Shown: positions 8,239 through 24,700 of the stretch, piece by piece
How positions within the stretch are numbered: position 1 is the first letter of the stretch
Layout of the letters: each line of letters opens with the position of its first letter
Assembly (NCBI RefSeq): GCF_003704095.1
Contig: NW_020844150.1
Span: forward strand, 62,001-126,000
Source: Pocillopora damicornis
Lineage: Eukaryota
Direction: 5' to 3'
Length of the DNA: 64,000 nt
The notes under the pieces: model-generated
The model's input: the letters and a program-made list of their open reading frames with translations, nothing else
What the model was told of the DNA's origin: nothing
The model's database searches: none
Position numbers and translations under genes: made by a program

Positions 8239-11200
8239 TTAGAATCTGTTCCAGTTTGTGATCATATCCTCAGGAGAAAAGTAAGTTATTTCATCTCTCT
8301 TTCGGCTTAGTTCTGAGCTGCACTTTCCCTTATCATCTAGGAATAGAAGATTAAGAAAACCACGCGGGTTACGTAATGTGTGACGTAAAACCAGAACCGT
8401 TACTATCACAACGGCCAATCCAGAAAAAAGGAAAATATCACAAGCCAATGAGACTTCCAATTAAAGCAAAGCAAACTGATTGAAGTGCGGGAAAACAAGT
8501 GAGGCCAAGCAGGATTGGTGAAGTTTCCCCATTTGATTGGTTTAAGTGGTAACAAGAGTCTCTTTATCAATTAGAGTGCAAAGTAGAGCAAAAAAAAAAA
8601 AACGCGGATTACTTTCGTCAGTCAATTGAGAATTGCCATTAGACTAATAGGTACAATTTTTGTATGCTCACCTAATCTCGCGAAAACTGCCACTTCACAT
8701 ATCGCCAAGTATCCTTTGCCTACCATACTGACAGAGACGTATTGACCTGGGATCGGCACCTTGCACTCTGCTGTCCAGACCTCCCCCTCCGCCAGCTGTC
8801 GGACTTGGTCCCCGCACATTGGATTCTGTTTGTGATCTTTCAGGATTCCGACGCGAACTTCAAAATTTGACAATGGACTCGAGAAATTGCCTGAAAAAAA
8901 GGTAATTTATGAACGGAGAGAGGTATTGGCTGTCCAACAAGTACAGGAAGACATATTTGATATTGAGATCTTAAGGTGGAAGTCTTCAAGAACAGGAGAT
9001 TGCAAGCAGCATGTCGCAATTTGCGCTCTGGTATGTAGCATATGCTCGCATTTTGTCACTAAAGATTTTCGGGTAGCTCCTGGTTGAAAGGCTTTCTTGG
9101 ACTTTTTTGCTGGTTTCGTTCTCATGGCAAATCATAGAGAATGTGTTGGTCAATGAAGGCTGTTACAGCGCAAGTTTTTCATTAGACATTGATTTACAAG
9201 CGACTGAGAAGGTTCAAAAGTGAGCTTGCTACTTCGCCTGAAGACAGAGCAAGGTGATAACCAACAAACCCTTAAACGCACATCAAAGCTTCATTTAGCA
9301 AGATGTTTAAATCTCGATCTAATAACGCCTACCAGATGAGCTGACTACATTCACATCTGTAACAATGTGCTCGCTCTGCAGATCCACTTTCCACCATGGG
9401 TCAACTTCAATGGCCGTAATCGAGCAGGAGCCTGCAGAAGGTTCTGTAGCCATGTTACCATCCACAGCCAGTTCTGGGCCCACCCCAGGAATGTTTACTT
9501 TCTTGCCTTTGGACTCACTTTGTAACTCATCAACGGACATCAAACTGGATTGCAGGGCGGGCTTTCCAAGAGCAATGTCTAAATTGGTAAACATTCATCA
9601 GCGTCAAATTTAATGGCAATGAATATAATTTTTCAATCATTTTCCCACTTCCCTTTCTTTTTCCTGTTTCTTTAACATTAATTCTTAAGCCATGATAGTA
9701 AAACAACTCACCAGGAACATGTTTGTCGCAAACCGAGAGGGCCCTAGGATCATCATATATCATCCAGGCCTGCTCATCCTTCACGGTTTTGTCGTCACAC
9801 TTGAGCAACTTGGCTTCTACTACACCTGATCCTGTTTTTCCCGCTAAGAAATGGTCAAAAATAATTGGAACATAAATATGAATTAGATTGTTTTGTTATG
9901 CTATTTCCAAGAAGTCTCATAAGGAGCTCAGACACGCGTAAGCTTCCTACCACAGGCAATAGACCAAAAGCGTTTGGTTCATGCAGTGCAAACTCTCTCT
10001 TGTATTTTTCTCGATTGAAGGAGCGATATCTTGCTTTTACTAGACCATAGAGTTAGTGAAGTTTTAGCGTGCTCCCAGTATATCGATTATTTTACATAAC
10101 TGAATGAGTTATTACCAGATCCCGTCACGCACAATCCAGAATCCTTCACAGGTGTAATCTTAGTGCCGTTGCAAGTGAACTTCTGCTCCTCAGAGGTGAC
10201 GTCACAAGCTTGCTGTAACACAAGAGCTTGACCTTGATCTGAACCCATAGCTGCACACAGACCAGACTTGACATTCTGATGAATGCAAAAGTGAAATCAG
10301 CGAGATGAAAGCAGTGTCAGGAAAGAACTTTAAAACATTTCACGTTGAAATCTCACTTAAGGTTAAGTTTTTGGCGTTTTTTTTCCTCAGTCAAAAAGAA
10401 AAAAAGGAAGTGACCCATAGATGCAGAGCAACCCTCTCCCAAACTTCGGCATAGCTTAAGATCAGTTAGAAGAAAAAATTAAACCACTCTTAGTTCGTAT
10501 CCCATTTGCAGACCTTCCATTGGTTACTTTGTAGCAAGACCTACCATCAATCCTCCTGTGAGTGTAAATACCCACTGGGACACATCCCCATCACAGGAGC
10601 CCAAAGTCACAGGAGAACCAACTTTTGCGCTAGCAGGAGTAGACAAGCAATCCTTCGTGCCATTCATCTGGATTCGGAATTCACCTACATTGGATAAGTT
10701 TTAAGTGTTTTTAAGAAGAGGCCAGAACAACTTAATTATCTCTCTGTCAATCAGAACCACAGACCAGAATTTCTCAACCAGCGAACTTATTTCAATCATT
10801 CGGACGGCCAGTTAAGCGTCTATCAGTTAAATATCTAATAAAACGTCTGTCAGGTAGTCGGTCAGTCAGGAAATCAGTCAGTAAGTCTGTCAGTCAAGAA
10901 ATCAGTCAGTCCGTCAGTCCGTAAGTCATGCAGTGGTTCAGTCAGTCAGTCAGTCTATCAGTCGGCCATTAAATCAGCCGGTCTCCTTGTCTGTCTTTCT
11001 ATTAGCCAGCAATAGATCCTTCGTTTTTGAAATTTCTACGGATGTATTTTTCTTGCACACACACCTGAAAATTCGAAATCAGATTCTTCTGCTGGCTTAT
11101 CATAAACATCCTTGGAAGGTCGAGGACTAAACAGCTTCTTAAAGAACTCCAGAGCTGTGTCTGCCAGTTTATGAACATTCTTTAGGGGATCAGCCAGATT

Positions 11201-21700: not shown

Positions 21701-24700
21701 GGCGTTTTGAGAGTTGCACACTAATGCTATGAATGAGTTTGGTTCAACAGGTTTTGTAGCGTCGGTGTTTTGAGGAGTTTCTGAAAATACAATCGAGACA
21801 TGAATTACAACAAACAAATTACATAGCTGAGGTATCACAGATGCTAGATACTAGCATTTTTCACCTAGAGGGGGAGGGGGGGGAGGGGGGCTCGAAAGAT
21901 TTTGGGTGGATCACACACATGGCTTGTAATGGGATCAGGGGGGAATCAGTCTTCGCTAGCAGAGTAGAAAGGGGGACCATGGAAAATCGATTTTAATTGG
22001 GGAGGGAGGTATGGGGGGGGGGGGTCCATTGGAAAATTAATGAGGCCAAAATCCTTCAACCGCCCTAGTGGGGGGGGAAGGGGTTGGGGGACTCGAAAGA
22101 TGTTGGGTGGATCTCACACGTGGTTTGTAGTGGGATCAGGGGGGGAATCAGTCTTCGCTAGCAGAGTAGAAAGGGGGACCATGGAAAATTGATTGTCATG
22201 GAAGGCTCATAAGAATATTAAAGAGGCCAAAATCCTTCGACCACCCTGGGCAATGAATAATCAATTACCGGTCCCTAAAGCACAAATACTGTGTCACATC
22301 TAGTTTCTCCCAAGAGCACCACACCTGAGTCTAACGTTCAGGTCAAAGGGTAAAAGGAAATGATTGCCAACTAAAAAAAGTCTTGTGAATTAGCAAATGT
22401 ATAGAGAGCAGTATGGAGAATACACATATTACCGTAAGCTTACGTTTACTTTAAGATGAGATGCTTGTCGCGATATTAACTTAACTATTGAATCAATTTG
22501 AACAAGCAGAATTAGGCGGTTGATCGTTTTCCGAGTGCAGAGGTTCTTATTTGTTCGTACTTTTTGCGCAAAATCTGCTGAGAAAAACAGGACTGAACAA
22601 AACCATCTACGTCTTAGGGTTACCTAAAATGCATCAAGACACAAAGTTCTTCTGTTTAAAGGCAAAAATGAGCGTACCTTTGCAGTTCGTTTTTGGACAT
22701 TCTTGGCTCTCGGAACCAGTCCCTGGACATACATCACCGCCATTCTGTGGTGCAGGGTTGTTACACTGGCGAGTGCGTAACTGTACTCCTTTGTTGCAGA
22801 CCTCTTTCTCTGAGCATTCACCCCAAGGACCCCAGGGACCCCATGCTCCGTTCACTACATCTGTTGAGGAAAAATCATCAACCCAATTTTACCTTGAGGG
22901 AAGAATTTTGTTCTCCAAGGCAACACACCGGCATTAACACAACATTGCATATGAAGAGTATATTCCTTGCTTTAGTTGTGAAATAAGTTGCGAAGAACCA
23001 CGATAACAGAGTAAAATAAAAATCAAAAGAGCACGAAGAATCTTTAGAAAGAATTTTCCTATCAGCCGAAGTTTACGAAAGAAGGTCCTAACCGTTACAA
23101 TAATTTAAGGCTTCATGAATAATTTACAACTGAGTGTCGAAAGCAGCGTGGAATTTCTGCGCCACATGACTGGTCTAGAAAATTCTTAGCTCCTTGTCAA
23201 AAAATTATAAATGAGATAAATTCCACATTCCACCCATGTACCCTTGTTTTACCGTGCGTTAGAAAGTTTGTTTATGGTATATAATTGTTGCTTTGTGATA
23301 TTTATCCAAATTCCGATAGGCCGCTGTGGTTATTTTCGTTTTGATTTTACTGCAACAAATGAAAAAAAAAACCTTTTTTTTTCCCCGTATATTATTATTG
23401 CCGTTATGTGTAGCTCCCATCGCGTGCCTGCATTTTGACGTCAACATCCGGGACATCGACCATATGTTTTGTGGAAAGGAACTAGTCTCTATGTTTGTAC
23501 TGGCATAATTATGGTTAAGTTATGGTCACTCTAAACTCGAAACAGTCGGTAAGTTCTATTGTGTTCCGTGTGTATTATAATTTCTCTCGCTAAAGGTATA
23601 ATTTCTGTTCGTAGAAAACCTGCTTTATTGCCCAACTGGATGTTTACTCGGCTTGACGACTGGAGCATTTGTAATATTATGATCAATATCTAAGTCGTAA
23701 ACTTACTGGTTGGACACTTCCTTATCTCGCATGCTTCCGTTTCCTGGCCGTTTCCAGGACACTCTCCTCCATACTGTGGGGCGGGGTTGTTGCATTCTCT
23801 TGTCCTAACTTTATTTCCAGTTCCACAAGTTGCACTACATACGGACCACTCTTCCCAGTCTCCCCATTTACCAGGAACTTTAAAAAATTACAATGATTAT
23901 CGGATTGGATAAGATTTAATGCAATGTCGTGAAAATGATTATGGCCCATGATGCACTTCACATATGTACCTGGACAAGGGGTCTCGCAATCAAAGGCAGT
24001 CTCAGTTGGTTCCCCAGGACATTCTTCCCCACCCCTCTGAGGGGAAGGATTGTTACAGCTTCTTTTTCGTGTTACTCGGCTTCCACCACATGATTTTGCA
24101 CATGGACTCCACTCTGACCAGTCTGACCAATGACCATCCAAAGGGCCAACTAAAAAAGGATTGAAATCATTGTTATTCAAGACAGTCCCTTTTGTTTTTG
24201 TGATTTTCTTTTTTGGTCTGCAAACCTAACACTCTCGCAAACAGCAGCGTCGAAAAAAAAAAAAAAAACTTCTGAAGCCCAAATATCAATGATAGCTTTT
24301 TGTGAGCCTGAAGTTTCCTGTTACCTTCACAAGGTTGATTGCAATCTGTCTTGGTTTCTTGAGCGTCTTTTGCTTCACAGGGCTTCCCGCCATTCGAAGG
24401 GGCAGGGTTATCACATTTTCTTACTCGTGTTACTGTAGCACCTCCACAAGTCTTGCTACAGGCAGACCACTCTCCCCAGGCACCCCAACCGCCATCAACT
24501 GTAATCAAGAATATGTCAGTACAGATAAACGAAATGACCGTTATAATAGGAATGGACATATGGAGTAATCATTTTTGAGATCAAAGAAAATAAAATAATG
24601 GAGTTTGATAAGTTATCTGGCAGAGCATTAAATATATGTGTATATATATACATAAATACATAAAGTGGTGGACATTAAGCAAACAAACTGAAGCTTTAGC

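What the first reader, a model, noticed from the sequence alone, without database searches (positions are those of the whole stretch)
11065..21780. About 1,200 aa of unassigned, beta-strand-rich sequence at the core of a secreted multi-lectin protein
Seen: between TSP1 and ricin-B, exons encode long runs of alternating hydrophobic/Gly strands (e.g. KVGFAVELDV, LQLGGKLFV, LYMNGMWKKAFGLSFLSIGNIQIG, GVFIKGTINILGF, IYIQGAVVIFG) matching no animal domain I recognise. Inference: an extended beta-sheet, possibly a lipid-carrying groove or membrane-attacking module. It is flanked by a lipid-binding PLAT domain and three carbohydrate-binding-type domains, which makes it a candidate innate-immune, symbiont-recognition, mucus or venom protein.
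Basis: inference. Interest (0 to 1): 0.7.

Follow-up and report, generated by a model that had tools for sequence, protein, structure and literature searches.

The report
Unnamed beta-cradle with furin-cut arm
This coral gene is spliced into one message for a likely secreted protein whose unnamed core, shared with sponges, amphioxus, a fungus and protists, is predicted to be a large curved sheet with one greasy face carrying a long helical arm, and the arm's tip likely gets cut free to grip microbial or food membranes.

Summary
The region is 11 exons (1,177 aa) of one 30-exon, 2,282-aa minus-strand gene; one RNA contig spans it. No Pfam, NCBIfam or PDB sequence match names it, yet it belongs to a large family (1,357 clusters; named members are sponges, cnidarians, an annelid, amphioxus, a fungus and protists). 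AlphaFold2 gives a confident meander of about 29 antiparallel strands, curled and strongly amphipathic, with a Cys-stapled helical hairpin inserted before its last three strands. No solved fold matches specifically; porins score Z 10-13 at rmsd 6.5-12 A or more. A Nematostella paralogue fits, by domain order only, the 'Polydom-like' proteins specific to digestive gland cells. Best reading (0.45): a secreted, lectin-aimed, furin-armed lipid- or membrane-engaging protein. An open lipid groove is not shown: I had no coordinates, and in the repeat unit the greasy face looks covered by helices. Venom and horizontal transfer are unsupported.

The parts
8239..29911 (-). Whole coding span: 30 exons, 2,282 aa
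29339..29911 (-). Predicted signal peptide (aa 1-23, exon 1 and start of exon 2)
   Evidence: hydrophobic N-terminus, no later 19-aa window above 1.53 KD; heuristic, not SignalP
26678..27888 (-). LamG3 / concanavalin-like domain (exons 4-5)
   Evidence: PF13385
25188..26303 (-). PLAT/LH2 domain (exons 6-8)
   Evidence: PF01477, E 7e-17 in the 98% identical orthologue
22678..25037 (-). Five TSP1 repeats (exons 9-13)
   Evidence: PF00090, 5 stretches
19102..21780 (-). Core N-part (aa 775-990): probably a worn partial copy of the family's 288-aa repeat
   Evidence: in-register profile match but weak, P 0.017 against 0.19 for the reversed control; low pLDDT
18697..19101 (-). Poorly conserved insert (aa 991-1125), predicted unstructured
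   Evidence: 21% identity to Acropora; pLDDT under 50; present in RNA
13115..18645 (-). Main amphipathic beta-meander, 26 strands with short helices (aa 1143-1644)
   Evidence: pLDDT mostly 80-98; 72% identity to Acropora; face test
12932..13111 (-). Outgoing helix of the hairpin and Cys cluster (aa 1646-1705)
12319..12931 (-). Cationic amphipathic helix, 11/3 period, Phe at 1712, 1723 and 1734 on one face (aa 1706-1741; spans the exon 22/23 joint)
   Evidence: peak 98.5 degrees, p 0.001 against shuffles, net charge +5
12307..12318 (-). Basic site 1, KTKR (aa 1742-1745); RSKR in Acropora
   Evidence: cleavage inferred
12160..12306 (-). Spacer between the two basic sites (aa 1746-1794), predicted to be excised
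   Evidence: 35% identity to Acropora; inference
12148..12159 (-). Basic site 2, RRKR followed by Phe (aa 1795-1798): the only R-x-K/R-R in the protein
   Evidence: same place in 13 of 13 matched hexacoral proteins
11324..12147 (-). Return helix with five Cys (aa 1799-1865)
11065..11317 (-). Last three strands of the sheet, capping helix and linker (aa 1868-1951)
   Evidence: pLDDT 77-90 over the strands and helix; 76% identity to Acropora
9712..10684 (-). Ricin-B beta-trefoil (exons 25-27)
   Evidence: PF00652, E 5.5e-12
8672..9578 (-). F5/8 type C / F-type-lectin-like domain (exons 28-29); the recalled fucose-binding motif was not found
   Evidence: PF22633; motif test

Best explanation
This single spliced gene encodes a likely secreted protein whose core is predicted to be a curved, one-side-greasy beta-sheet carrying a long Cys-rich helical arm, and the arm's tip would be cut twice by a furin-type protease to free a cationic amphipathic helix that likely inserts into microbial or food-lipid surfaces. 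Shown: one transcript, domain order, family breadth, face asymmetry, the amphipathic helix and the two basic sites. Predicted: the fold and the disulfide staples. Inferred, step by step: (1) secretion by gland cells into the gut cavity or mucus; (2) cleavage at both sites removes the spacer, while the two chains stay joined because the last three strands complete the sheet and the arms are stapled; (3) the ricin-B, F5/8 and LamG folds aim the protein at glycans, and PLAT adds a lipid contact; (4) the freed helix lies down in an anionic membrane or lipid droplet and loosens it; (5) the uncovered part of the sheet takes up lipid. The working logic would resemble BPI/LBP (cationic tip plus lipid-holding sheet; recalled), built from an unrelated domain. 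The outcome would be lipid scavenging, bacterial killing, or both.
For: Face A of 29 strands: 96 of 146 positions are V/I/L/F and 6 are charged (E 2, R, K, D, H); face B is rich in E/K/S. Two stretches of the terminal unit have little local cover: 10 strands with 37 conserved hydrophobic positions against 8 off-sheet, and 6 strands with 20 against 5. The sheet curls: 16-22 strands overlay porins at rmsd 6.5-11 A. Weak covariation links two short helices to face-A residues 3-8 strands away, as expected if the sheet wraps round them (z 5-6.5, among clear noise). Tip: of 14 hexacoral proteins examined, 13 matched; 13 of 13 have two basic sites and net charge +5 to +11, and 11 of 13 have p under 0.01 for 11/3 amphipathicity. 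The tip exons of one paralogue are spliced as modelled in two RNA studies. Among paralogues the windows over the tip are 67-71% identical to Nematostella, within the 43-86% range of the domain. Three protist-type or unnamed homologues (P0128, P0132, P0140) also carry an acidic spacer plus an amphipathic helix in the tip. All four Nematostella Polydom-like genes are expressed in 68-88% of GD.1 putative digestive cells against 0.2-2.4% elsewhere (PMC12549020 supplement); the paralogue P0209 has their domain set.
Against: No experiment and no coordinates: the concave face is not known. The repeat model partly overlays prenyltransferase barrels (Z 6.0), whose helices lie outside the barrel (recalled), which would point the other way. 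The tip is modelled at pLDDT 30-60. Amphipathic 11/3 helices also occur in plain coiled coils. 18 of 35 full hairpins have only a short Cys-knot tip, so the armed tip is not family-wide. The 13 hexacoral proteins are relatives, not independent cases. Site 1 is not a canonical furin site in the window's protein (Lys at P4). The expression data are for a paralogue, matched by architecture only, and that protein was recovered from mesoglea and read by the authors as a basement-membrane factor. The recalled fucose motif is absent from the F5/8 domain.
Confidence: 0.45

Rival explanations
1. It is a structural matrix or mucus protein. The greasy face is buried under its own helices, the rod length is set by repeat number, and furin cleavage releases the amphipathic helix to form coiled coils with neighbours and so polymerise a gel or basement-membrane layer.
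For: Balanced hydrophobic budget in the repeat. The repeat model is an elongated sheet that overlays flat scaffold sheets such as CPAP TCP10 (Z 6.2, rmsd 5.6) and OspA (Z 5.8). Repeat number runs from under 1 to about 11. Flanking domains are matrix types: TSP1, VWA, EGF, HYR, Sushi, Ig. NvPolydom-like-4 gave 28 peptides in isolated mesoglea, peaking in primary polyps.
Against: The tip helix is cationic with regularly spaced Trp/Phe and many Gly, more like a membrane-binding helix than a zipper. 16 strands of the terminal unit lack local cover. Expression is in one gland cell state, whereas the paper places collagens and laminins in the inner cell layer.
Confidence: 0.3
2. It is a pore-forming or fusogen-like effector. 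Cleavage arms it, copies oligomerise on a lectin-marked cell, and either the helices or the curled sheet, acting as a pre-built barrel, pierce the membrane.
For: The best structural matches are membrane beta-barrels (Z up to 13.0). Cleavage in front of a Phe-led helix at a hairpin tip recalls class I fusion proteins (recalled). Lectin-plus-effector layouts are common in pore-formers (recalled).
Against: Barrel matches have rmsd of 6.5 A or more, 4-11% identity and no stand-out row. The sheet goes on beyond 22 strands, so it cannot close as a porin does. No 19-aa hydrophobic segment. The residues after site 2 are only briefly hydrophobic. Viral matches all have TM 0.10 or less.
Confidence: 0.12
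3. It is a far-diverged, secreted member of the repeating-beta-groove / AsmA-like / DUF6603 lipid bridges, passing lipid along its length between two surfaces.
For: Repeats of 4-6 strands plus a helix and loop, amphipathic faces and variable repeat number resemble the unit defined in PMC7613979. DUF6603 is the nearest named ESM Atlas cluster (0.84-0.85, a lead only).
Against: 0 of 85 protein scans against Pfam showed DUF6603, AsmA or VPS13 families. The repeat is 14 strands in 288 aa, and its helical layer could cover the greasy face. Strands average about 9 residues. Described eukaryotic members are cytosolic, while 14 of 21 named members here have a signal-like N-terminus.
Confidence: 0.1

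Closest known systems
Nematostella Polydom-like proteins (PMC12549020), probably NvPolydom-like-4 / NV2.13340
   Same: The paralogue P0209 (LOC5507741) has TSP1, ricin-B, F5/8, EGF, Sushi, HYR, TKE and Ig domains and lacks vWFA and pentraxin, as the paper and its Fig. 4E legend describe; it carries this core at 30% identity over 845 columns.
   Different: The match to NV2.13340 rests on architecture, not on a sequence comparison. The passages read do not mention the core. The window's gene has LamG and PLAT in front and no EGF-Sushi-HYR-TKE-Ig tail.
Repeating beta-groove / bridge-like lipid transfer proteins (VPS13, ATG2, Tweek, Hobbit, SHIP164; AsmA-like TamB)
   Same: Long antiparallel meander built of strand-plus-helix-loop units, one hydrophobic face, length set by repeat number.
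   Different: Secreted; 14-strand repeat; curled terminal unit; inserted helical hairpin; no sequence or fold hit; hydrophobic concave face not shown.
ApoB100 / lipovitellin amphipathic sheets
   Same: Secreted, large curved amphipathic sheet with amphipathic helices. ApoB100 is the top Foldseek row (E 5.7e-4); lipovitellin chain B overlays part of the repeat (Z 5.5, rmsd 6.6, 128 aligned).
   Different: The ApoB match has rmsd 57 A and TM 0.11, so it is not a real superposition; no LLT/vitellogenin-N or VWD domain in Pfam scans.
BPI/LBP (TULIP) proteins (recalled)
   Same: Proposed working logic: cationic tip engages a microbial membrane, curved sheet with long helices holds lipid.
   Different: No sequence or fold match listed; several times larger; protease-armed tip; lectin modules.
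Outer-membrane porins, VDAC, Tom40
   Same: Up-and-down meander of 16-22 strands with barrel-like curl (Z 10-13).
   Different: rmsd 6.5-12 A for most rows, no closure, secreted protein with internal helices; the match reflects topology only.
Linear cationic antimicrobial helices of the cecropin / piscidin type (recalled)
   Same: Lys-rich amphipathic helix with Trp/Phe and Gly, bounded by basic processing sites.
   Different: Here the helix would stay tethered to a protein of over 2,000 residues. The coral peptides in PMC12496222 are Cys-rich ShK-type and unrelated.

Membership tests
Repeating beta-groove (RBG) superfamily | Unit of five strands plus helix-loop crossing back, 150 aa or more | tested here: inconclusive
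   Sub-units of 4-6 strands plus helix-loop, about 95 aa each, three per 288-aa repeat; similar in plan, shorter in size
Repeating beta-groove (RBG) superfamily | Concave face hydrophobic, convex face hydrophilic, open groove | tested here: inconclusive
   Amphipathic faces shown; coordinates not available, so the concave side is unknown; budget suggests cover in the repeat
Repeating beta-groove (RBG) superfamily | Sequence or structural homology to VPS13/ATG2/BLTP/AsmA | tested here: inconclusive
   No Pfam hit; not among the listed rows
Repeating beta-groove (RBG) superfamily | Cytosolic or periplasmic bridge between two membranes | tested here: not met
   Signal-like N-terminus, extracellular domains and no transmembrane segment
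DUF6603 (PF20248) | Match to the Pfam profile above 27 bits | tested here: not met
   0 of 85 protein scans and 0 of 11 core exons; only an ESM feature score of 0.84-0.85
Large lipid transfer proteins (ApoB, vitellogenin, MTP) | N-terminal LLT module | tested here: not met
   No such Pfam domain in the two full-length orthologues; ApoB Foldseek row has rmsd 57 A
Known cnidarian pore-formers (MACPF, aerolysin, actinoporin, jellyfish toxin) | Family profile match | tested here: not met
   None in Pfam scans of P0002 and P0003 at E up to 1
Known cnidarian pore-formers (MACPF, aerolysin, actinoporin, jellyfish toxin) | Shared fold | tested here: inconclusive
   Not among the listed rows, which porins fill
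Cnidarian Polydom-like proteins | EGF-Sushi-HYR-TKE block without vWFA or pentraxin | tested here: not met
   Absent from the window's protein; present in its paralogues P0209 and P0212
F-type lectins | His...Arg-x-Asp...Arg/Lys fucose-binding motif (recalled) | tested here: not met
   No match in the window's domain or in P0209
Sponge aggregation-factor wreath domain | vWFD-like beta-sandwich with Asp-Pro site | tested here: not met
   PMC11670116 describes a two-sheet sandwich; both models here are single meanders
Furin substrates | Cleavage after R-x-K/R-R in the secretory path | not testable with these tools
   Motif present and conserved; cleavage needs N-terminal proteomics

The most novel reading that the evidence does not exclude
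This is the founding example of an undescribed, eukaryote-wide class of secreted membrane-engaging machines: an extendable amphipathic beta-cradle with a stapled helical arm. In hexacorals and some protists the arm carries a convertase-armed, tethered antimicrobial-type helix, and lectin modules aim it at microbes or prey in the gut, where it strips and carries lipid. It would be the first secreted counterpart of bridge-like lipid carriers and a new arm of coral gut immunity or digestion.
Probability: 0.3. Interest if true: 0.9.

Novelty: categorically new. Interest (0 to 1): 0.74.

Why it matters
A domain of 500-800 residues, present in over a thousand sequence clusters and in several animal phyla, has no name, no solved relative and no description in the papers I could search. 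In reef corals it comes in at least five genes per genome with a tip conserved between Nematostella and stony corals. If that tip is a protease-armed membrane helix, corals have an unrecognised gut effector that bears on how they digest prey, control bacteria and perhaps handle symbionts. The claim is directly testable with a 36-47-residue peptide, liposomes and an existing Nematostella gene and cell atlas. It would also re-read a published 'Polydom-like' matrix protein. The novelty rating applies to the domain; its function is still inferred.

Tried and rejected
Two genes: rejected by RNA contigs. Known domain: none in Pfam for the exons, 5 full proteins or 80 of the 150 listed homologues (only flanking domains and weak coiled-coil hits); NCBIfam 0 for the coral core; PDB sequence searches gave coiled-coil and other weak rows only, best E 0.089 and 0.0048. 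Folds: Foldseek PDB had 1 row at E under 0.001 for the core (ApoB, rmsd 57) and 0 for the repeat; BFVD rows had TM 0.10 or less. VPS13, ATG2, BLTP, TamB, YhdP, LptA, BPI, MACPF and aerolysin are not among the listed rows; this excludes nothing, since porins crowd the lists and AlphaFold DB was not on hand. Prokaryotic or viral members: 0 of 74 pattern matches in GTDB and 0 of 153 in IMG/VR were confirmed; these scans are insensitive, and the Atlas lists small unnamed bacterial clusters at 0.94, so bacterial relatives stay open. One unnamed homologue on a long contig turned out to lie in a eukaryote-like, apparently intron-containing EGF-rich gene. DUF6603 search of the own genome rang nowhere, controls included: uninformative. 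Wreath domain: different fold. The repeat HMM does not hit the coral N-part at iE under 0.01. Deep tree nodes are unsupported (0.00-0.75 around the hexacoral clade; 126 sequences with enough coverage, midpoint root), so no donor or order of events is claimed. I first read the EGF-Sushi-HYR exons as lying in front of the paralogues; full-length proteins show they are C-terminal. Earlier scan notes: nothing relevant. Not-in-print rests on nine searches; six accessions and 'DUF6603' gave 0 papers.

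
Full report
1. The gene. The five quoted peptides lie on the minus strand. Splice-site mapping gives 30 exons from 29911 to 8239, GT-AG at every intron, and one stop-free frame of 2,282 aa. Order: signal-like N-terminus, Pro/Gln-rich stretch, LamG3, PLAT, five TSP1, the unassigned 1,177 aa (exons 14-24, exactly 21780-11065), ricin-B, an F5/8-type domain and a short tail. Database models from Pocillopora meandrina (98%), Acropora palmata (61%) and Stylophora (83%, partial, with a second LamG) have the same order. 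A 7,003-nt poly(A) contig carries exons from LamG to the stop at a constant offset, including all 749 nt of exon 16, and a second study joins exon 16 to the last exon.

2. The family. A five-sequence profile found 1,357 clusters at E up to 0.001 and 670 at 1e-10 among 1.84 billion representatives; I saw the best 150. I looked up 30 clusters; 16 carry an organism or dataset label and all are eukaryotic: Oscarella (2), Sycon (3), Hydra (2), Actinostola, Owenia (2), Branchiostoma (2), the fungus Hyaloraphidium (2), the protist Lapot gusevi and one MMETSP entry. None has a name that describes the domain. 14 of 21 named proteins have a signal-like N-terminus by a simple hydropathy rule. The plan is constant: a variable number of 288-aa repeats (under 1 to about 11), a terminal unit of about 520 aa, a helical hairpin, three closing strands. 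Different lineages add VWA, EGF, HYR, TKE or F5/8 domains. The coral N-part is probably a worn partial repeat (weak, in register). The own genome has four more copies in tandem on another contig. Their full-length relatives in Nematostella, Actinostola and six stony-coral genera run TSP1, core, ricin-B, and in most cases F5/8, EGF, Sushi, HYR, TKE, Ig. A tree of 126 sequences puts the hexacoral proteins on one long branch (support 0.85-0.99) and resolves nothing deeper; it gives no sign of transfer from fungi.

3. The fold. AlphaFold2 on the P. meandrina core with 96 sequences gives pLDDT mostly 80-98 over residues 1139-1644 and 77-90 for the closing strands; the N-part, the insert and the hairpin tip are low. 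The confident part is one up-and-down sheet of about 29 strands with short helices, and a long helical hairpin leaves it after strand 26 and returns before strand 27. A sponge-type homologue's 1.4 repeats fold at pLDDT 90, pTM 0.84. The best covarying pairs confirm neighbouring strands and one disulfide. Structure searches give no specific match. The core overlays porins over 16-22 strands (best Z 12.8-13.0, rmsd 8-9 A), which says that it curls like an open barrel or spiral. The repeat overlays porins badly (mostly rmsd 11-19 A) and flat single sheets moderately (CPAP TCP10 Z 6.2; OspA 5.8; lipovitellin chain B 5.5), which says that it is an extended twisted sheet.

4. The greasy face. Across 29 strands one face averages +2.2 and the other -1.0 in family hydropathy; the difference is 3.22 against 1.30 +/- 0.17 in shuffles. 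Whether this face lines a cavity is the open point. In the repeat, conserved hydrophobic positions off the sheet equal those on it (47 and 46), so a helix layer can cover it. In the terminal unit the ratio is 0.74 (65 to 88), with two stretches nearly bare locally (0.22 and 0.25) and two neighbours in excess (1.24 and 2.6). A few weak covariation pairs fit a sheet curled round its own short helices. This allows a partly filled cradle; it does not show a continuous groove.

5. The arm. 36 proteins (my model and its 98% orthologue both counted) had both ends of the hairpin; most hairpins are 130-310 aa and 33 have four or more Cys. Of 35, 18 end in a short Cys knot, 3 have under four Cys, and 14 have a long Cys-free stretch, 7 of them significantly amphipathic. 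In hexacorals the design is fixed: Cys cluster, cationic amphipathic helix of 29-47 aa (period peak 97-99.5 degrees in 10 of 13, 93-94.5 in 3), basic site, spacer of about 15-50 aa, second basic site followed by Phe, return helix with Cys. 13 of 14 proteins examined matched (the miss is a partial model), all 13 have both sites, and 11 have p under 0.01. In the window's protein Phe 1712, 1723 and 1734 sit on one face. The helix is 61% identical to Acropora while the spacer is 35% and the insert 21%. For one paralogue the small tip exons are spliced as modelled in two RNA studies. Three distant homologues put an acidic spacer in front of a Lys-rich amphipathic helix at the same place. That such helices bind anionic membranes and lipid droplets, and that furin cuts R-x-K/R-R, is established knowledge, recalled and not tested here.

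6. Expression clue. PMC12549020 describes four Nematostella Polydom-like proteins with EGF-Sushi-HYR-TKE plus TSR or Ig, and its Fig. 4E legend lists ricin-B and F5/8 symbols. P0209 has that set. Polydom-like-4, whose best hit is hemicentin as for two coral orthologues' UniRef labels, is the likely match. [quoted passage not shown] The authors read them as basement-membrane factors. I could not see the figure or the large supplementary file 4, and I did not compare sequences; either could change this link. It concerns the paralogue, not the window's gene.

7. Mechanism and rivals. I commit to a secreted, lectin-aimed, convertase-armed protein that grips a membrane or lipid surface with its tip helix and takes lipid into a partly open cradle (0.45). 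A structural matrix or mucus role with a buried face (0.30), a pore-former or fusogen (0.12) and a diverged RBG/DUF6603 bridge (0.10) remain.

8. Novelty. No Pfam, NCBIfam or PDB family covers the domain, and nine literature searches found no description. The library lacks most subscription journals, and InterPro, PANTHER and AlphaFold DB were not searchable. Papers seen: PMC12549020 (passages, all of section 8, rows of supplementary files 4, 5, 7, 8, 9 as listed by the tool); PMC7613979 (passages and Introduction); PMC11670116, PMC12496222 and PMC12960093 (passages); all others as search listings only. Verdict: a real, undescribed domain family with an unusual predicted build; function inferred. 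Interest 0.74.

Noticed in passing
G000:C998 about 467,000-590,000 (L006-L019): Four tandem paralogues with five TSP1, the core, ricin-like blocks and an F5/8 domain; at least the first two are followed by EGF, Sushi, HYR, TKE and Ig exons. Their tip helices are longer and more cationic (+9 to +10) than in the window's gene.
   Followed up: partly
window 18697-19101 (-): A 135-aa basic, poorly conserved insert inside exon 16. The P. meandrina database model cuts 25 aa out of it as an intron, but RNA contigs carry the whole exon.
   Followed up: partly
window 27888-28686 (-): The Stylophora orthologue has a second LamG domain here; the window has no trace of it.
   Followed up: partly
window 3355-3543 (+): NF-YB-type histone-fold exon (PF00808) of a neighbouring gene converging on this gene's 3' end.
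   Followed up: no
window about 35,800-55,800 (+): Exons with two F5/8 domains and several, partly duplicated FN3 domains, then a long unannotated exon and hydrophobic segments; looks like a receptor or channel with an extracellular array.
   Followed up: no
window 58084-58704 (+) and 61628-62182 (-); 56887-57294 (-) and 63092-63478 (+): Two pairs of similar open frames in opposite orientation, suggesting an inverted duplication.
   Followed up: no
window about 6,990-7,990: About 1 kb of degenerate tetranucleotide-type repeat just downstream of the gene.
   Followed up: no
L022:1-13654: A eukaryote-like gene in a metagenome contig joins dozens of EGF repeats to the same core, with a hairpin of about 600 aa.
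   Followed up: partly
proteins P0004-P0011: Unnamed proteins of 1,800-3,900 aa with up to about 11 near-perfect 288-aa repeats encoded in single long frames; these would be extended sheets of 100-150 strands.
   Followed up: partly
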